Shown here one piece after another: positions 6,150 through 62,012 of a stretch of DNA of 64,000 nucleotides. Under the pieces are notes generated by a model. The model was not told the DNA's origin. It was given only the letters and a program-made list of their open reading frames with translations, and made no database searches. The position numbers and the translations under genes were made by a program. The stretch comes from Narcine bancroftii (Eukaryota), in assembly GCF_036971445.1 (NCBI RefSeq), contig NC_091474.1:77872001-77936000 (forward strand). Direction: 5' to 3'. Positions within the stretch are counted from its first letter, which is position 1, and the number at the start of each line of letters is the position of its first letter.

Positions 6150-7019
6150 CTGAAAAATATACAAAATTCATTGGTTCACTAGGTGAAGGTTGTCTTGACT
6201 GGATTAGAGTGGTGAAAATCTACAGTGATGGAAACAAAGGCAAGAGTCATTTTTCATTTAGTCTTTTTCTGCTACAATAAGTGGCAATTCTGTCTGGCCT
6301 GGAGGAAAAAGAATCTCAGGGTGTATGTGATGTCATGTCTGAACTGACAATAAACCTGAAATCTCATAATTTTCCCTTGAGTTTGAGCAAAAGTTAATAC
6401 TGAAATCTCTGTACTTCTGAACAGCTACTGATCACCCCACTCCAACCTGGCTTCCTCTCCATGCCAATGCCACTTGGTCTGCAAGCGTAGAAAGATAAAT
6501 GCATGGAAATTCCCCACGGATCTTATTTCTTGGTCAGCTATACTCCTCCCACTTAAATTGTTTCAACTACAGTTACCACAGCTGAGAAGAAATAAAACCA
6601 TGCAGCGTCTTCCCTGACCTCAGGACATTCTAAAACAACTTTCAGAAGGCTGTGAATCACCGTTGAACACTGTAATGTCCCCAATAAAACAAGGAGGTGA
6701 ATCAGCTATTGGAGAGATTCTGGATTAAAGATAAATATTGACGAGGATTAGATTATATTGTGACTACTTTAAGATTATTTCCCTGCTCAAATTGTTACCT
6801 CATTTCTCCTCGAGCATTCTGAACCCATTTGACCTGTTGCACTTGATATTGCATTCAATTTGCATAGCCAATGAGATAAAAAAAATGATGTTGGTAGAAT
6901 GGTTTAAGATGACATCCACTAGAGGTTAAAGTGAAATATATGGAAGTTGTCATGGAGAGGAGGAGTTAAGTTCTTGTGAGTCACTAATTCAGAGGAGCTT
7001 TCCTGGACCTAATGCACTC

Positions 7020-7622: not shown

Positions 7623-8400
7623 CCAAGAGAAACTGCTTGACATACTTAGGTGGGGCTGAATATTGATGTAAATAGATTTCAGTGCATGATTATAAAACGA
7701 GCTTCCTAAGCCACATTCCCGCTTCTTCCAGCTCTCCTTCTGCTCACTTATTGCATTATTACCTCTGCTTTGCCCCACTGTATGCTTATTTTTCACTGAA
7801 CTTCAGAATAATGCAGTGGGACCACACAGAAATTCCTCACTGATCAATCCAAAGAGCCACAATGAGACACAAGTTTGCAATAGTCTGCAGTTTGCAGTTT
7901 ATTAATTGGGCTACATGGTGTGTTTGCAGAGGGTACATCTGGTCTTCCGACAGCTATTCAATAACACTGGACAACAAATTTTTTTTAACAGGTTTGCTTC
8001 CTGAAAACAAAAATTGGGGATTATGATCGACAACTTCAAGCTGAGTACGTAGATAATTTCAGATTTGCTATATCACGTAGGAAATTGGAAAAATATTAAC
8101 TTTTTTTGAATTAAGCACGTTTAATCGCATGATGTACCTCTGAACCAAGCTCTCAGGTTGACTGCATATGTTGCACTACCCATATGAGGAGCCCAGGGTT
8201 TGTCTAGTCACCAATTTTACAACTGAAATAGAGCTCATAGGCTTTCTTAATAAGTGCAGTCATACTTAAATGTATACTTGTCATAAATTTTCGAGACATT
8301 TCTGCTGTACTGAATCTTCCTGAAGACAATACATGCTATTGTAAGTGCACTCACTGTGCTATTACCAGAAGAACATGTGCATCAACATGTGTTTAATCTT

Positions 8401-8439
8401 CTTTTCTTTGGCTTGGCTTCGCGGACGAAGATTTATGTA
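8401..8439 (-). mobile_element. ultra-short RTE LINE 3'-end insertion
   Basis: tctttggcttggcttcgcggacgaagatttatg is the reverse complement of the RTE 3' terminus at 53254-53286; flanked by TAATCTT direct repeats (8394-8400, 8440-8446). Confidence 0.75.
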
Positions 8440-8662
8440 TAATCTTTATTATTGTTATGTTTAATCTATAATCAATGTAATACACAGCATCTGTGTATGT
8501 GAACTGCTTTTATAGCCTGTCGGTATTTATCCTGCCTAAGCATGCCCAGGCTTAAGACAACATTTGCATAGCACCAGCATTGAGTGCATGCTCAGGCATG
8601 CTTGGACTGACCAATATACTAGTAGACTTAGAATATGTTGGGAAATGACAATAAATATGTAA

Positions 8663-9288
8663 TATCTAAAAAAAGATACGTGATAGGAACATTTTAAGGT
8701 GATTTTCGTGATCAGTAGCCAAACATCCATAAAAAACACCCCAAAGTGTTCATGAAACAAAATCTTCATTGTCCAGAGTAATTCTCATTAAAAAAAGTGA
8801 ATATCTGGACTGACAGCACCATGAAAATAAGCATTTATCTATATTATGAATGGATGCTATTTTTATTGCTAGGGAGATTGAGGATGATATGAGGAAAATA
8901 TTCATGTATTCTGCTGTATGAGGCAGGAAAGTGGTCTCATGGGCCAAGAATGCTGTGGCCTCAGTCTTTTTGATTTTCCAATAGGTATGAGGTACATTCA
9001 GCTTGTTTGGATGATAATGGATTCAGGGTGAATGGACAGTTAATTGGAAAGATGGCTTGTCTTTGTGGTTCAGGAAACAATTTAAGCGAACATAAATGAA
9101 AGGATAGTAGGATTAGTATTTTCATGGTGCTGTCAGTCCAGATACTCACTTTTTAAAAAAATGAGAATTACTCTGGACAATGAAGATTTTGTTTCATGAA
9201 CACTTTGGGGTTTTTTTTTAATGGATGTTTGGCTGTTGATCATGAAAATCACCTTAAAATGTTCCTATCATGTTCCTTTTTTTAGATA
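8663..9288. repeat. long inverted repeat (arms ~8663-8828 and ~9117-9288, spacer ~290 bp)
   Basis: e.g. ccaaagtgttcatgaaacaaaatcttcattgtccagagtaattctcatt is the exact reverse complement of aatgagaattactctggacaatgaagattttgtttcatgaacactttgg. Confidence 0.9.
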
Positions 9289-10573
9289 GTAGGATTGACA
9301 TTGTTCTCTGGCAAAAATGGAAGAGTCAGGAATGCTGTGTTGTCTGCTCAATGCCAGGATAATTGAAACTAAATTTGATTTCCAGAAAGTATTTGAAAAG
9401 ATATGGGATCAAACGTTCAACTTTTTACAGATTATAAAAATAACTTTGATGAACAGATCATTGTGGTATAGTTGCCGACAACAGAAAAAGACAGGTAACT
9501 ATGAAGAGACATCAGATGGATGCATTTGGACTTGAGTTAAGTGAGGATTCAAAGATCTAGCAAATGGAGTGTAATATCAGAAAAATGCAAAATTGTTCAT
9601 TGCTATAATGTGGAAAAATATAGATGAGTCAGTTGTCCAAATGGTGAAATTGCACAGCTTTGCATTGCAGAGGGGGGAATCAATGCATGTTAATGCATAA
9701 TTTTCAAAAAGTAAACGTGTGGTAAAAGTAGGTAATAGGAAAGCTAAACCTTCCCTTTTAATACAAAAGTAGACAAGTTATGTGTCAGTTATGAAACACT
9801 GCTGCTGGAGACAAGATGTCAAGTGTCCTGACAAACTCTGGGAGGACAGTCTGCTAGAGATATATGTAGATAGGAGATTGAGACAGATAGAGAGAAAGAG
9901 ATAGAAAGAGGACAGACACAGTGTAGAAAGATCACATGACCAACAGCTGGTCAGCATTCACTTGAGGAAGAAGAATTACTTTGACAGTTCTGTGATCTGA
10001 TCTTGGGACATAAAATGATCAGATAGGGTGTTTGAGAACTGACATCCTGTGAAAGGGACGGCCTGATGAATTGCAAAAGGCTAACAAGCATCCTTTCAAC
10101 TAATGAACCCTCTGCTCTGGAGGGTGAAACAGATGTGTCTTGTTTGCCAAGTCCTTGAATGAAGGACAACTTGTATGATAGACTTTGGAGTCGAAAGGGT
10201 CCTGGGCAGGTGCAAGAACAAAGAGAGTACAGTAAAATCCCCAGTCTCCAGCACCTACTGCTGATGCCAGATATGTGAAATTTTCTGGTTGCTTGAGACA
10301 TACTCTTACAATGCCAAAGTAATACAACTGCATTAAGAATAAACAGTTTAAAAGACAAAAGAAAATCCGAAAAGTAAGTTGAAACATATCAGTATTGTAT
10401 CCCCTAATTATGTAAAGTTCACTTCAATCAGATAATTCCCCTAACTGATAAGATTTAAATTTGAACCCCAGTCGCTGGCTCTGTAACAGTACTGTTCTAT
10501 CTGCTAGCGTTAACCGTTTACACTGAACAAACTTAACTTGCTACTTGAAAGTAATAAACATTTAAAAAAACAA

Positions 10574-12316
10574 TTAGCTTGAATAAAAATAAAGATCACC
10601 AGCAACAACTGAAAGGTCATCAAGGTTAGCAGATGATGTGGATGGCTGTGGTCCTGCAGCAGATGATGTGGATGGCTGCGGTCCTGCAGCAGATGATGTG
10701 GATGGCTGCGGTCTTGCAGCAGATGATGTGAATGGCTGTGGTCCTGCAGCAGATGATGTGGATGGCTGTGGTCCTGCAGCAGTTGATGTGGATGGCTGCG
10801 GTCCTGCAGCAGATGATGTGGATGGCTGTGGTCCTGCAGCAGATGATGTGGATGGCTGCGGTCCTGCAGCAGATGATGTGGATGGCTGCGGATCAGGATT
10901 AGTGGATGCACTGGCAGCCTTTTGGGTTGCCTTCTTCAATAATTTCTGACCAGCTTGTTTGAAGGCCCTTCTCCTTTCATGCAAAGTCAGGTTTTGCATG
11001 ACGTACAGCTGCATAACATGTTGAGAAGTTAAGAAAGGTTGCTGTTCTGCAAAGGCAAAGATGGTTTTAAATGCTGCAGTAGCATTTTTCCAGGAGATTT
11101 TTCCCACCTCTTCGACCTCTTCATCACTTTCCTCCTCTGCTTGGTTTTCTTTTCCATGATTCTCAACCGCTTGTATTATCTCTTCCGTATTTAGTGTATG
11201 AGTAACGGGAGCATCTTGATCCACATTAAGCCATTCATCAAGGTCAAAGCGTGACAAAGGCATCTTATCACGAGCAGAGTCAACCAACTCACGCACCTCA
11301 TCATAAACTTTCTTTCTCATCCCGTGTGTTGAAAACTCCTTAAACTCGTCTTCGGATCCTTCCTCAAACATTACAAGTGGCCACAACTTTTGCCAGCATC
11401 TCCTTAATGTTTCACGCTTCACAGAATCCCAAGCGCAACTAACATTGTAAATAGCATCCTTGAGTGAATATTTCTTCTGAAATTCCAGTATTGTGCCGTC
11501 AAAGTTTGTCATTTTTCGCATGAAATCACGTCGATACAACATTTTCACATTTTGGATAACCCCTTGATCCATGGGTTGAATCAGGCTTGTCACATTTGGA
11601 GGGAGATAACATACAAAAATGTTACCATTCATAAGTTCCTCAGCAGGAGGATGAGCATGACAGCTATCTAAAAGCAACATAATTTTACTGTTTTCTTTCA
11701 TACCCTTCCTACGTAAATTCACTTTGACACTGGGGACAAAGATGTGATGAAACCACCTGGTAAAGATGTCAACATCCATCCAAGCATTGCTCTGTGACTG
11801 ATAACCAACAGGAAGGTGAGCAATGCCTTTAAAGCACCTTGGCTTAGCACATTTTCCAACCACAGTCAGTTTCACTCTGTGGCTGCCAGATGCATTTGCA
11901 CAAAGAAGCACAGTTATTCTTTCTTTATTCCGCTTGGAACCTCGAGTAACTTTATCATCAACACTAGCCAAAGTAGTGTTAGGCAGACATTTCCACATTA
12001 ACCCCGTCTCAACAGCATTGTAAATTTGGTCTGGGGTTAAGCCTTTGTTGGCAACTAGCTCTTGAAAAACACTGCAAAACTTATCCACTGCCTCATGATC
12101 TGCTGATTTCTGCTCACCAGACAAGTCTGATGTACGGATACCATGGCGAATCTTGAATCTGCTAAGCCAGCCATTTGAAAAAGAACATTCGGACTCAATA
12201 TTCATCTTCTTGTGGAACTCCTTTCCTTTTTCTTGCAACATGGGTCCTGTTATGCAACCACCTTCCGACTTTTTCAAAGTAAACCATTCAAAAAGAGCCT
12301 GGTCAAGTAAGTCCAT
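10574..12316 (-). CDS. Tigger/Jerky-like transposase-derived ORF, 580 aa (CENP-B HTH + DDE_1 domain + repeat tail); first catalytic Asp replaced by Val
   Basis: Motifs LDQALFEWF, FSNGWLSRFKIRHGI, IYNAVETGL (consensus NADETGL), LLLD-32aa-D (QPMDQG); no internal stops; expression unproven. Confidence 0.8.
   Translation of the reverse strand: MDLLDQALFEWFTLKKSEGGCITGPMLQEKGKEFHKKMNIESECSFSNGWLSRFKIRHGIRTSDLSGEQKSADHEAVDKFCSVFQELVANKGLTPDQIYNAVETGLMWKCLPNTTLASVDDKVTRGSKRNKERITVLLCANASGSHRVKLTVVGKCAKPRCFKGIAHLPVGYQSQSNAWMDVDIFTRWFHHIFVPSVKVNLRRKGMKENSKIMLLLDSCHAHPPAEELMNGNIFVCYLPPNVTSLIQPMDQGVIQNVKMLYRRDFMRKMTNFDGTILEFQKKYSLKDAIYNVSCAWDSVKRETLRRCWQKLWPLVMFEEGSEDEFKEFSTHGMRKKVYDEVRELVDSARDKMPLSRFDLDEWLNVDQDAPVTHTLNTEEIIQAVENHGKENQAEEESDEEVEEVGKISWKNATAAFKTIFAFAEQQPFLTSQHVMQLYVMQNLTLHERRRAFKQAGQKLLKKATQKAASASTNPDPQPSTSSAAGPQPSTSSAAGPQPSTSSAAGPQPSTSTAAGPQPSTSSAAGPQPFTSSAARPQPSTSSAAGPQPSTSSAAGPQPSTSSANLDDLSVVAGDLYFYSS
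10628..10891. repeat. 30-bp coding minisatellite, ~8.8 units (agcagatgatgtggatggctgYggtcctgc)
   Basis: Directly visible tandem array; encodes PQPSTSSAAG on minus strand. Confidence 0.95.
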
Positions 12317-12626
12317 CTTGGAGGATGTCCTGTGAAAAGGAATCTTTGTTTGTTTACCTCGGTCACAAGGTGGATTGCAGGTGTCTCCTGGTGCGTGAGT
12401 GGTAGATTGGCAAAATACTGGTGAGGCGCCCCAATTTTAAACTTGCATATTTTTGACCGATTATTTTATTCTTATTTATTTAAATTTTTTAAAACATATT
12501 TATTTCTGTGATTTATTTTGCTGGTTTCTTGAAGTTGCCAGTTGCTTGAATTCCAGATAATGGGGATTTTACTGTATTTAGAAGAAAAATCATATAAAAA
12601 AAGGCTGTCAAAGCCATCATAAGCAT

Positions 12627-13211
12627 TGTGAGAAACAGAAGTACCTTCACAGAATTTGCTCGAGACAAAAATTGAGAACAAAGAACATTTATTATACAAC
12701 AATGCAAAGTTGGGTGCTTCCCCTTACCCTGGGAATACACACACACACACACTGGGGCTCACCCAACTTTTATACAGTTCATTTCAGTATAGAAGTACCC
12801 TCCCCCTTACATTCTTCTGCCTCCTGGATGAGTTTGGCATTAGGCAATCCTATCTGCCTACATGCTGTTTCTGTGAACTTGGAGGACCAGGGGGTATCCT
12901 GTCGGTGTCCCATCATGTCATTGTCCTTTTTGACAAACCTGCCTTTGTCCTTATTCACACCTTCCCAACCCTCAGGGCTTACTAACTCTTATATGCAGAA
13001 CTTGCTAATTCTGTCTAAGGCTTACTAATTACATATGCGGAACTTGCTGACTCTGTCTAAGGCTAGAAGACCCTTAACTTATTCAGACTAACTTTACTTC
13101 CTACATTCTATTATCTATCCTTATCCTATTCATACTGGCTTTATTCATTACACATATATCCATACTAGCTTTCTTCATCTCTCATATTTTCATATCAGTT
13201 TTACTCACACA
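12627..13211 (-). mobile_element. solo LTR (585 bp)
   Basis: TG...CA termini; 4-bp TSD GCAT (12623-12626, 13212-13215); minus-strand TATAAAAA ~12770 and AATAAA ~12690; ~43-bp tandem duplication at ~12976-13064. Confidence 0.85.
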
Positions 13212-13398
13212 GCATTAACTCAGGAAGAAGTGTTGCAGTAGAAAGTTTGCACCTCAGAGATTATAACCCCTACTAGAGTGGTCATGGCCAGTTGATAAAG
13301 GTAGCATTTAAATCAAAATCACTAGTCTTGTGAATTAGTAAAACAAAAAGCGACAAGTTAGAACAGTAAATCAAAATGTTAGTTAATTGTAGACTATA

Positions 13399-13590
13399 TC
13401 TTTGGCTTTGCTTCACGGACGAAGATTTATGGAGGGGGTAAATGTCCACGTTAGCTGCAGGCTCGTTTGTGGCTGACAAGTCCGATGCGGGACAGGCAGA
13501 CACGGTTGCAGTGGTTGCAGGGGAAAATTGGTTGGTTGGGGTTGGGTATTGGGTTTTTCCTCCTTTGTCTTTTGTCAGTGAGGTGGGCTC
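13399..13590 (-). mobile_element. RTE LINE 3' fragment
   Basis: Reverse complement of the 3' end of 60688-61647. Confidence 0.9.
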
Positions 13591-15650
13591 ATGTTGAGAC
13601 CCTCACTGTCCAATCGCTCACCAAACATTTCTTTTGTTGATGCTCCTTAATTCAACCTTGCTGAATTATTCGAGCTGATAGGGTCAAGACCTCATTGGGA
13701 ATGCTTAGATGAATTTCAGATTAAGTATGCCATATTAATATCTTGAAAGGGGCAGCTTGTCTTCGCAGGAAAAGGTGATCAGACCAGAGTGGTATCAACT
13801 GGGGTTTAGAAAAGATTCAGATTTATTGTCAGAGTACATACATGACATCACACAACCCTCTCAGGGAGTGGAGACTTGATTGAAACATGTGCAATGTTTC
13901 CTCTTATGGAGAATCTGGAACTAAGGGTTACTATTCATCAGTTTGAATCATGGGATCAAGTAGGATTGAATTGTCCTGCATGATAAGATTAAGCAGATTG
14001 GGCTTTTGGGGTTAATACATGAGTGTTGATTTATTAAATGGCAGAACAAGTCTAATGGACTTATCTGATTTAATTTATGTTAAACTAAGACCCTCACAGC
14101 ATTATTTTGAAGAAGAGCAGGAACATAGTTTTCTTTATATCTTAATTAATTCTTAATTCAACACTCAATATTACTCAAAACACATTAAAGCTGTTTCCTC
14201 TCCATTGTTTCTACCTGAATACTTCCGGAATATTCTGCTTTTAAGTGGGAATGTGACTAGTAATGAGGATATACAGAAATTTCAAGGTTGAATTAAGGAG
14301 CATCAACAAAAGAAATTTTTGGTGAGAGATTGGGTAATGTTGATCTCCAGTGACCTGAGCGTCTTTGCAACCAATAGTTGAGATGGCATTTTGGCCTTGA
14401 ATGTTAGAGGATTTGAGCATAGAAGTGAAGGGGGCTTATTATTATGTAGGGCCATTGGTAAGAACATATGTAGAGTATTTTATACAACTTACTTAACACT
14501 GTCTTGACCTAAATAAAAAGTACAATAGAATTTTCATCAGCCTATTTCCTATGAAGAGGTCATTCATTTAAGGGCAATTTGAGTAGGTTAGGTGTTTATA
14601 GTTTAGAACAATAGGTGACCTCAGTGAAAAGAAAATTAATTTTGGAGGGGTGAACAGAGGGGATTTGTTTCCCTCAGTTGAGGAGTCTTTAAAGACAGTG
14701 TCAAAAAAAAGTAGAAGACATATGGCTTAGAAGGTTACATTTGTCACATAGATGTATTTGGACAATGAGGGCTTGTGGGCTGGAAGAACCTGTAACTGCC
14801 ATGTATCTCTAAATGAAAAAAAAGACAGAAATAAGAAATTTCTCCATGGTGAATATTTGGGATTCTCTATTCTGAAAGGATGTGGAAGCTCAGCCATTGC
14901 CTTCATCAAGAAATCAGATGATCAAATTTTGGATGTCATTCAGAATCAAAATATAGGAGGACAAGAAGGGAAAACAATTTTTAATGATGAAATAGTCCAA
15001 TTCTGCCCTTGTTTCTCAGACTTAGTTCAACTTTGTAGCATTTTAGTGAAACGATTACATTCATTCAGCATATTGCACGCTGTATACAAATCGTCTGCTG
15101 TGTTCCCTCCCTTTAAAGAAAATGTATCAAACTTCAACAAGTACTTAAATTTGTCTGGAAAGTAATTTATAGTTCTATTTGTGACAGGCAAGGCAAAGTT
15201 TTGATATCCACCTCTCCCTCCAGCACATACGATCAATCTTACTGCAAAAAATACTGCTACATTACCAAATGCAAAAAAAAAACCCAACCGCAGTCATTTT
15301 CATTGAAATATTTTCCTAAGTGGTAAACAGCAAGAAGTAAAATAGCTTTGGGGTTCGATAACAATTAATTGTTACGTGAGGAATCTGGCTTGGCATTCTA
15401 TTTGGTTTATCAAGAGTGAAAAATATGTATAAATGATGCAGTGCTCCGAACTGTATTGGTCCTCAGCCAAGATTAATCTTTGGCAAGTACTAAACAGCTT
15501 GCAAACGGGCCAAGCAGACCCATTTTGAACCGCTTTCGCAGTTTTGATGATATAATCTCGATAAATTGACCAGATAGAGCATGCATAAGATCCATCAGTA
15601 CCAGAAAACGAAAAAAAATTTACAGTGGTCATAATAAGTTAAGCGCTTAC

Positions 15651-15700
15651 TCTTCACATCGGTCCTCTCGCCGGTGAAACGACCATCAATCTGTCAACCA
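15651..15700 (-). other. candidate non-coding first exon of divergent gene (5' end approximate)
   Basis: Minus-strand donor GA|GTAAGC at 15650 on the left edge of the CpG island. Confidence 0.35.
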
Positions 15701-16300
15701 CCTCAGCGCGCATGCGCAGAAGGGAGACTCGATTGACCGGGCATGCGCAGTGACGGACTTTGAGTGCTGCTCCCCACCAATCAGTTGCTCATTGTGGAGG
15801 CGAGGGAAGGCGGTTGCAGTCCGCGAGCGGTTCGGTGGTGCTGGCTGCGCGCAAGCGCGGTGGGGAGCTGCGTCGGGCTCGCTGGCTCCAGCCCGCGCGC
15901 ATGCGCCCGGAGTTGGCGTCACGCAGTGGCCGAGCGGAGAGAAGCAGGGCGCCCTCGGAGCGGGAATGGGGTCAAGGAGCGGCCTCTGGTACCGGTACCG
16001 AGCAGCGCCGGCTCCCCGCCGTCCGAGCTCGCTGCGGAGCAGATAACAGAGGATCGGTGCGGGTCGGCCGCTGGGGGAAAGCTGAGGTGAGAGGGGAGCT
16101 GTGGCAGGGAGTGTCCGGGGAAGCAATGGCCCACCCGCGGGGTGGGTGGGCGGGCGCTGTGTCTCCCCGAGCTCCCACAGCTCATCGCTGCCTCCAGCTC
16201 CCACCCTGGCTAGCAACACCCGCCGTGCCGTGCAGCACCTTCCCTGGCCGGTAGTGCCTACTGTGCCCACCTTACCCAGAAGCTCTCCCCGCAGCACCCC
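15660..16300. promoter_or_regulatory. CpG-island promoter, probably bidirectional
   Basis: Only strongly CpG-rich island in the window; NRF1-type GCGCATGCGC at ~15708 and ~15897, variant GGGCATGCGC ~15739, CCAAT ~15777; splice donors pointing outward on both strands. Confidence 0.85.
15900..16086 (+). other. DLG5: non-coding first exon of DLG5-family gene (start approximate)
   Basis: Donor GAG|GTGAGA at 16087 within CpG island; linkage to downstream exons inferred. Confidence 0.55.
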
Positions 16301-46504: not shown

Positions 46505-46523
46505 ATGGCTGAGGATTGTGTTG
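46505..46523 (+). CDS. DLG5: predicted first coding segment MAEDCV(G) of DLG5-family gene
   Basis: Strong Kozak AAACATGG; donor TTG|GTGAGT; phase 1 joins in frame to the 62013 exon. Confidence 0.6.
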
Positions 46524-61647: not shown

Positions 61648-62012
61648 ATATGACTTGTGCTTAGCTTGGGGCATTACTGAGTATTGTTATTTCATCTTAA
61701 AACAGATGAAAGTAAAACACTAAAGTCTGAAAGCACCGTGGTTGAAGTAAAAACGGAATGGTGGAGAAACTCAGTAGATCAAACAGTGTCCTTTATACAA
61801 CAAAGATAAGATACATACATAACCAACGTTTTGTGCTTGAGCTTCGCTACACAAAGTACACTGTTTGACCTGTTGAATTATTTCAGTGCTGTGTTTTAAC
61901 TTGAAACAGTTGAGTTGAGTTCAGACCCACTCCGTAAGCTTGATTTTGAAATATGGACTCTTTTTGAAGATTAAGAATTCTATTAATATCCTGCCTAAAA
62001 TTTATTTTTCAG

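What the first reader, a model, noticed from the sequence alone, without database searches (positions are those of the whole stretch)
10574..12340. Catalytically dead but fully open Tigger transposase with its own splice acceptor: candidate domestication in progress
Seen: a 580-codon ORF with no stops, whereas the Harbinger, the Gypsy and both long RTE copies here are broken. The first catalytic Asp is Val (V102, GTT at 12013-12011). The N-terminal HTH is absent, but the CENP-B HTH and the D-32-D pair remain. An acceptor ttccttttcacag| lies 13 nt before an ATG in strong Kozak context (AAGATGG). The ORF is co-oriented with the minus-strand donor at 15650. Known: pogo/Tigger transposases have been domesticated repeatedly (CENP-B, JRK, JRKL, TIGD genes), often losing DDD residues. 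Inference: it could be expressed from the DLG5 bidirectional promoter as a DNA-binding protein or dominant-negative repressor. Caveat: intact TIRs and TSD also fit a simply young copy.
Basis: partly seen in the sequence, partly recalled or inferred. Interest (0 to 1): 0.7.

Follow-up and report, generated by a model that had tools for sequence, protein, structure and literature searches.

The report
Disarmed transposase kept as ray gene
An old jumping-gene copy in an electric ray has kept an unbroken protein code while nearly all its sister copies decayed, has lost a cutting residue and its first DNA-gripping part, and shows up in likely-RNA data of two species, so it is likely a young host gene, predicted to be read from the promoter of the neighbouring DLG5 gene and to act through protein contacts.

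Summary
The sequence observations are confirmed. The 'young copy' caveat is refuted.

- Age: the copy's non-coding parts are 13.7% diverged from the family consensus, like dead copies, but its ORF only 5.7%.
- Frame: it has 0 stops or frameshifts where about 12-15 are expected. Of 15 examined DDE-bearing siblings, 14 are shattered.
- Losses: a private deletion of about 260 nt removed the native start and the first HTH, leaving ancestral Met81 as start. The first catalytic Asp became Val.
- Second species: contigs from likely-RNA runs of another organism carry the same deletion, likely the same Val, and no indels across the ORF core.
- Context: the element faces away from dlg5a across a CpG island, like TIGD1-EIF4E2.

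Against: dN/dS is only mildly reduced (0.47-0.72 of the dead-copy baseline, p 0.03-0.11) and looks neutral between the two species. Contigs read through the proposed acceptor with no junction seen. Strand, translation and function are untested.

A second sibling (662 aa) is also open and lost the same Asp independently. Verdict: likely a young, weakly constrained domesticated Tigger gene; a new member of a known kind.

The parts
10230..12574 (-). Tigger (pogo) DNA transposon copy, TIR to TIR, with TA at 12575-12576 and 10228-10229
12553..12574 (-). 5' terminal inverted repeat (~22 nt), decayed; 18 of 22 match to the 3' TIR
10230..10251 (+). 3' terminal inverted repeat (~22 nt), decayed
10574..12316 (-). 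580-codon open frame, identical to database protein P0001 held by NCBI and UniRef; starts at the family's internal Met81
12324..12325 (-). Junction of a ~260-nt deletion that removed the native ATG and the CENP-B_N (psq-type) HTH; one match in the genome at up to 2 mismatches; also bridged by an organism B contig
   Evidence: (X4 record 32)
12330..12342 (-). Acceptor-like site, ancestral to the family's 5' UTR; use not seen in contigs
12131..12313 (-). HTH_Tnp_Tc5 (PF03221), residues 2-62, the remaining half of the two-part DNA-binding domain
12011..12013 (-). First catalytic position, Asp to Val (ancestral GAC/GAT; GTT here; likely GTC in organism B)
11393..11926 (-). DDE_1 (PF03184), residues 131-308, with D217 (11668-11666) and D250 (11569-11567); fewest amino-acid changes of the four regions compared
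10628..10891 (-). 30-nt tandem repeat (8.8 copies) coding a low-complexity Pro/Ser/Thr/Ala tail; sister copies carry related arrays
7654..10227 (.). Flank downstream of the element, tiled by identical contigs of likely-RNA runs; candidate 3' UTR, strand unknown
   Evidence: X1 records 3-6, X3 records 17-21
15649..15650 (-). GT donor (AGA|GTAAGC) of a candidate non-coding first exon; use not shown
15677..16176 (.). CpG island (53 CpG in 500 nt, GC 0.69, o/e 0.93); the only one between the element and the dlg5a start codon; plus-strand donor at 16087
46505..46523 (+). First coding piece of dlg5a (MAEDCV), preceded by an acceptor, so a non-coding exon lies further upstream

Best explanation
This is an old, immobile Tigger transposon copy with an unbroken 580-codon frame that selection has likely kept open, making it a likely young host gene that is predicted to be read from the dlg5a CpG promoter in the opposite direction and to act through protein contacts rather than by cutting DNA. 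Shown: old age, open frame, D102V, loss of the first HTH by deletion, and presence in likely-RNA contigs. Likely: the same copy is open in a second species. Inferred: the deletion left the ancestral Met81 next to the 5' UTR so a shortened protein can still be made; that protein cannot cleave and binds transposon ends poorly; its conserved DDE fold and C-terminal helices let it pair with transposase-like partners. The mechanism I favour (about 0.4 on its own) is a dominant-negative subunit first kept as a brake on its family and now under weak constraint.
For: Frame: 18 dead copies carry 293 stops or frameshifts in 20,961 aligned nt. Scaled to this copy's synonymous changes 15.2 are expected and 0 seen (P 2.5e-7); about 12 if scaled to all substitutions (from figures). 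The family is small: 18 of 18 DDE-region candidates scored, 18 loci, of which 14 examined are broken, 2 are open and 2 short hits were not examined. Internal control: non-coding 87 of 637 nt differ versus coding 77 of 1,356 (p 7.5e-9); dead copies differ by 11.1% in coding sequence. DDE_1 has 8 amino-acid changes against 32 expected at the dead rate. Contigs of X1-X3 identical to the window cover ORF pieces and bridge the 3' TIR-flank junction, while 14020-14420 and 6401-6801 have depth 0-2. X4 (organism B) contigs cover 10901 to ~12327 at 93% or more with no indels, bridge the private deletion, and share about 11 non-CpG derived sites with the window against 1 of 37 sites specific to L002. 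The protein is in NCBI and UniRef as such. Precedent: TIGD1-EIF4E2 (PMC2777200).
Against: dN/dS is only 0.47-0.72 of the dead-copy baseline, Fisher p 0.034-0.114 over three consensus thresholds. The 25 listed window-versus-B differences outside one ambiguous contig are 17 non-synonymous to 8 synonymous, no different from dead copies (p 0.66). Changes shared by both species are also 13 to 6. B contigs show D250N, E278K, T303I and H191N inside the DDE fold (two may come from merged paralogue contigs). Synonymous changes in DDE_1 are also halved (6 versus 11.7), and the difference between domains is not significant (p 0.10-0.18). No junction or loose end at 12329 in X1, X2 or X4. 23 of 63 B differences were not displayed, so a stop in B cannot be excluded. 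The unspliced 5' region has three upstream ATGs. Strand and translation are unknown, and the runs are only guessed to be RNA. TIRs and TSD remain.
Confidence: 0.65

Rival explanations
1. Fading relic: the frame was selected while the family was active (as a repressor) and is now decaying slowly with no current function.
For: Window-versus-B differences look neutral (17 to 8). Conserved positions have eroded (R16K, A77V, E121D, N218S). No active family member was found.
Against: No indel in B across ~1.4 kb, where about 3-4 frameshifts would be expected from ~40 differences at the dead-copy rate (estimate). Changes shared by both species are not richer in synonymous sites than later ones, so no earlier phase of stronger selection is visible.
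Confidence: 0.18
2. DNA-binding factor through the remaining HTH_Tnp_Tc5, as in POGZ, which keeps only this HTH.
For: The HTH is intact by Pfam (E 1.4e-14), with 7 changes against 12.8 expected. POGZ precedent in PMC7386202. Many short family copies offer potential sites.
Against: The solved CENP-B DNA-binding fragment (1hlv) spans both HTHs, family residues 11-137, and this copy lacks 1-80. It is the only one of 81 aligned relatives with nothing upstream of this HTH. HTH constraint is not significant (P 0.06).
Confidence: 0.1
3. The RNA matters, not the protein (a divergent dlg5a-promoter transcript or small-RNA source); the open frame only keeps it stable.
For: Synonymous sites are also somewhat conserved (27 against about 41 at the dead rate). 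Contigs tile the element and ~2.6 kb of flank. Upstream ATGs would lower translation.
Against: Non-coding parts of the same transcribed element are fully diverged and carry 9 indel events, while the deficit falls mainly on amino-acid changes.
Confidence: 0.05
4. A young or simply lucky neutral copy.
For: TA and both TIRs are recognisable. Coding divergence is lower than in dead copies.
Against: The closest long sibling is only 83% identical. Non-coding divergence equals that of dead copies. P(no disabling change) is about 1e-5 to 1e-7 with only 18 loci to draw from; halving the event rate for alignment noise still gives about 1e-3 per locus. It predates the split from organism B.
Confidence: 0.02

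Closest known systems
TIGD1-EIF4E2 in primates (Kalitsis and Saffery 2009, PMC2777200; passages read)
   Same: Recently co-opted Tigger transposase, lineage-restricted, head-to-head with a host gene across a CpG island, still bearing transposon ends.
   Different: TIGD1 keeps the catalytic core and lost one TIR. This copy keeps both decayed TIRs, lost the first Asp and the first HTH, and lies 3 kb from the island; its start site is unmapped.
JRK, JRKL, TIGD2/5/7, CENPBD1 (Gao et al. 2020, PMC7386202; passages read)
   Same: Tigger-derived, DDE_1 retained with an altered triad; 39-43% identical to mammalian jerky homologs.
   Different: Those genes have Ka/Ks 0.06-0.21, both HTHs, no TIRs and many orthologues. 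This one groups with its sibling and with amphibian proteins, not with mammalian JRK.
LOC26532114 of the Drosophila obscura group (PMC13548663; abstract and section 9 read)
   Same: Recent lineage-restricted domestication with mild constraint (dN/dS 0.7) and a shared bidirectional promoter.
   Different: It kept the HTH and lost the DDE domain, and its 5' UTR intron is confirmed by reads; the opposite domain was kept here and splicing is unconfirmed.
Host-transposase fusions using a transposon's own acceptor (Cosby et al., bioRxiv 10.1101/2020.05.07.082677; passages read)
   Same: The acceptor upstream of the ORF is ancestral to the element; the caecilian relative P0004 carries a KRAB domain.
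   Different: No host coding exon is fused here and use of the acceptor was not seen.

Membership tests
Tigger (pogo) transposon | TA target duplication and short (~20 nt) TIRs | tested here: met
   definition in PMC9219625
Tigger (pogo) transposon | DD29-36D spacing between second and third Asp | tested here: met
   D217 and D250, spacing 32; range from PMC7386202
Autonomous Tigger transposase | Complete DDD triad | tested here: not met
   V102
Autonomous Tigger transposase | CENP-B_N plus HTH_Tnp_Tc5 | tested here: not met
   CENP-B_N deleted; present in sibling P0002
Domesticated pogo gene (criteria of Gao et al. 2020) | No TIR or TSD in the flanks | tested here: not met
   Both remain, decayed; by that rule it would be filed as a transposon
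Domesticated pogo gene (criteria of Gao et al. 2020) | Significant purifying selection (Ka/Ks below 1) | tested here: inconclusive
   Frame retention highly significant; relative omega 0.47-0.72, p 0.03-0.11; neutral-like between species
Domesticated pogo gene (criteria of Gao et al. 2020) | Open orthologue at the same locus in other species | tested here: inconclusive
   One other organism, contigs only: shared deletion and derived sites, no indels, flank covered; no listed contig bridges an insertion junction by 31 nt; 23 of 63 differences unseen
Domesticated pogo gene | Immobile and single-copy | tested here: met
   Deletion junction occurs once in G000
TE gene in a bidirectional CpG pair (TIGD1 type) | Start sites of both genes within 1 kb on a shared CpG island | not testable with these tools
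   Island, opposing donors and gene order fit; contigs cannot show starts or strand
TE gene in a bidirectional CpG pair (TIGD1 type) | Spliced upstream exon joined to the transposon | tested here: inconclusive
   No junction at 12329; contigs read through, but contigs drop rare forms
JRK orthologue | Groups with mammalian JRK in a protein tree | tested here: not met
   Quick tree of 32 rows: window plus L002 (99) sister to Geotrypetes and Hyperolius proteins (99); mammalian jerky homologs lie elsewhere

The most novel reading that the evidence does not exclude
One small Tigger invasion of electric rays left a set of independently disarmed, separately kept pieces: a full-length 662-aa protein (first Asp to Ala, third to Asn), this HTH-less 580-aa protein, and a 160-aa two-HTH protein. 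They would act together as a multi-subunit repressor or chromatin complex, like the Paramecium PiggyMac-like set but young enough that the ancestral transposase is still readable from dead copies.
Probability: 0.12. Interest if true: 0.75.

Novelty: new member of a known kind. Interest (0 to 1): 0.5.

Why it matters
Most Tigger-derived genes are old, and their source transposons are gone. Here the dead sisters still give the ancestral state, so the steps of domestication can be read: insertion near a CpG promoter, loss of the first HTH, loss of catalysis, with ends not yet erased. Two or three copies of one small family were kept in parallel with different domains, which allows a direct test of whether early domestication selects for DNA binding, for the catalytic fold, or only for a brake on the family.

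Tried and rejected
No RNA holder listed: none of the 5 runs is on record as RNA. Four of the five were laid; X5 was not.

Splice junction 15651 to 12329: not among the 15 of 327 joints or the 24 of 3,158 loose ends displayed, and none in the narrow lay. Contigs cannot show absence.

Predicted complex of the C-terminal helices of P0001 and P0002: no verdict (0.30, mark 0.34; alignments not used).

AlphaFold model was poor (mean pLDDT 50). Its fold search gave only weak Mos1/SETMAR hits (best E 1.7e-3). A recalled resemblance of the C-terminal helices to the CENP-B dimerisation domain was not supported by the profile search of solved structures.

No protein above 76% identity other than the window's own in the near-length search, and none above 65% in the shorter-length search, so no orthologue protein from another ray was found.

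RNA-polymerase large-subunit exons on this contig lie 3.5 Mb away, so a POLR3A-like 3' UTR does not explain the flank cover.

Descent of this copy from L002 was rejected: they share 3 of 61 and 65 derived sites, like random pairs of dead copies.

An apparent gene-conversion tract in B (10968-11224) was set aside as a probable merged or paralogue contig.

CpG island within 10 kb upstream: 2 of 3 open copies versus 2 of 18 dead, p 0.08, weak.

The CpG-restored consensus over-corrected; plain-majority versions were used for tests.

PMC7325037 passages gave nothing relevant.

Full report
What is there. The window lies on contig C15 of a 3.3-Gb genome. Database proteins identical to a sibling ORF and matching the neighbouring gene at 100% are named Narcine bancroftii, an electric ray. 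A Tigger element spans 10230-12574 on the minus strand with TA on both sides. Its TIRs match each other at 18 of 22 nt. It holds a 580-codon frame with HTH_Tnp_Tc5, DDE_1, V102, D217 and D250, and a tandem-repeat tail. This exact protein is held by NCBI and UniRef.

The deletion. Sister copies have 242-268 nt more between the 5' UTR and the present start codon (5 copies). That piece held the native ATG and the CENP-B_N HTH. The present ATG is the family's Met81. The acceptor-like site is ancestral. The junction occurs once in the genome, so the shortened form never spread.

The family is old and small. The best long sibling is 83% identical. A search with the DDE region scored 18 of 18 candidates and found 18 loci: this copy, L002, 14 broken copies and 2 short hits not examined. 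For statistics I used 18 dead copies (these 14 plus 4 short internally deleted ones). One group (L027) had no ORF match, and 15 loci of distant families (29-45% identity) were left out. Dead copies keep GAC/GAT at the first Asp in 9 of 11 with a base call there; this copy has GTT and L002 has GCC. The two share 3 of 61 and 65 derived sites, so they are independent insertions that lost the Asp separately.

The frame has been protected. Dead copies carry 293 stops or frameshifts in 20,961 nt. This copy has none, against 15.2 expected from its synonymous changes (P 2.5e-7); BLAST projection may overcount indels in dead copies, but halving the rate leaves P near 1e-3. Within the same element, non-coding parts differ from consensus at 87 of 637 nt with 9 indel events, coding at 77 of 1,356. 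Dead copies differ at 11.1% in coding and 10-19% in clean non-coding rows. The copy is therefore as old as its sisters.

Amino-acid constraint is modest. Non-synonymous to synonymous ratios are 1.46-1.81 against 2.52-3.12 in dead copies (p 0.034-0.114). By region, changes observed over expected are 0.55 (HTH), 0.73 (linker and first-Asp region), 0.25 (DDE_1) and 0.44 (C-terminal); heterogeneity p is 0.10-0.18 and synonymous changes in DDE_1 are also halved.

Transcription. Five runs hold the stretch, all guessed RNA; four were laid. In organism A (X1-X3), contigs identical to the window cover 11576-11880, 12158-12242, 12295-12420 and much of 7654-10657; one bridges the 3' TIR and flank. Stretches at 6401-6801 and 14020-14420 have depth 0-2, which argues for RNA. 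A deeper contig about 10% diverged is L002 (32 of 32 diagnostic bases). Contig depth cannot rank expression, and strand is unknown. Contigs in X1, X2 and X4 pass through 12329 with more than 31 nt on each side, and no junction was seen there.

Second species. In X4 (organism B), contigs cover 10901 to about 12327 with 63 differences and no indel. One bridges the private deletion and runs 9 nt into the 5' flank; B also has depth 47-53 over the 3' flank at 8807-10009. In the ranges where differences appear fully listed, B shares 19 sites where the window differs from the dead-copy majority. Seven are CpG sites that may be ancestral and one lies at a contig end, leaving about 11, against 1 of 37 L002-specific sites. 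Codon 102 in B reads GTC, Val: 12011 is listed and 12012 is not, among equally supported rows; this is an inference because 23 rows were hidden. Against strong constraint, listed differences are 17 non-synonymous to 8 synonymous and include D250N.

Context. dlg5a runs on the plus strand: start codon at 46505 after an acceptor, next exon at 62012, dbPDZ_assoc 81 kb beyond the window. The only CpG island between the element and that start codon is at about 15.7-16.2 kb, with a plus-strand donor at 16087 and a minus-strand donor at 15650. A shared promoter is inferred, not shown.

Mechanism. Cutting is ruled out by established DDE chemistry (own knowledge) given V102. End binding is likely weak, since the CENP-B DNA-binding structure spans both HTHs. 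What remains best conserved is the DDE fold and the C-terminal helices, which points to protein contacts. Truncated inhibitory transposases and overproduction inhibition are described in passages of PMC6719617, and dominant-negative complementation of mariner appears there as a cited title. I therefore favour a dominant-negative subunit kept first as a brake on the family, now weakly constrained. This step is inferred; no binding was shown.

Relatives. The nearest outside proteins are from the caecilian Geotrypetes (68% and 63%, one with KRAB) and the frog Hyperolius; other rays and sharks gave at most 57%. The quick tree groups the ray pair with these amphibian proteins and apart from mammalian JRK. 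That pattern suggests horizontal spread of the family, which was not tested.

Literature. I read passages of PMC2777200, PMC7386202, bioRxiv 10.1101/2020.05.07.082677, PMC7325037, PMC6719617 and PMC9219625, and the abstract and section 9 of PMC13548663; no supplements. Searches for Narcine with transposase gave 0 papers; electric ray with transposable elements and genome gave 7, of which 6 were listed and none by title concerns this locus. The library lacks most subscription journals. An earlier unchecked note reports another open Tigger frame head-to-head with DDX17 in this genome; I did not test it.

Verdict. Real, old and likely selected; a young domesticated Tigger gene of the TIGD1 kind, unusual in lacking the first HTH and in having independently kept siblings. 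Interest 0.5.

Noticed in passing
L002/L031, G000:C8:51785223-51787208 (+): Second open copy of the same family: 662 aa, both HTHs, first Asp to Ala and third to Asn, 0 disabling changes against 26 expected, relative omega 0.48-0.62 (p 0.005-0.024), four NCBI accessions, present in contigs of organism A and likely B; nearest CpG island 34 kb upstream. A stronger domestication candidate than the window copy.
   Followed up: partly
L021/L036, G000:C8:47219188-47219670 (-): Short internally deleted copy with an open 160-codon frame coding both HTHs only (0 disabling changes against 7 expected, but chosen as the best of many short copies); CpG island with a same-strand donor about 4.4 kb upstream.
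   Followed up: partly
L033, G000:C21:72187099-72188805 (+): Open 598-codon jerky-like frame, 45% identical to P0002; probably the older gene shared by skates and devil rays (cluster of P0047); not aligned to confirm. Several other open Tigger-like frames were listed.
   Followed up: no
P0003, P0004 (Geotrypetes seraphini), P0005 (Hyperolius riggenbachi): Closest outside relatives each altered one catalytic Asp; P0004 is a KRAB fusion. Identity of 63-68% between a ray and a caecilian suggests horizontal transfer.
   Followed up: partly
window 8660-9291: Long inverted repeat (arms about 170 nt, 90-98% complementary, 287 nt apart) inside the candidate 3' UTR; would form a long RNA hairpin if transcribed.
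   Followed up: no
window 13596-13660 and 14283-14347: 65-nt inverted repeat, 88% complementary, possibly ends of another DNA element.
   Followed up: no
window 12817-13618: Repeat with very high contig depth in organism A runs and none in organism B; possibly a lineage-specific insertion between the island and the element.
   Followed up: no
window 46505-46523: The four ray and skate dlg5a proteins inspected start with a short MAEDCV exon; the shark and ray entries listed lack the CARD (PF00619) that many bony-fish entries carry.
   Followed up: no
L011/L017/L024, G000:C24:76.42 Mb: The 30-nt tail repeat is greatly expanded in this dead copy, giving an open low-complexity frame over 600 codons.
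   Followed up: no
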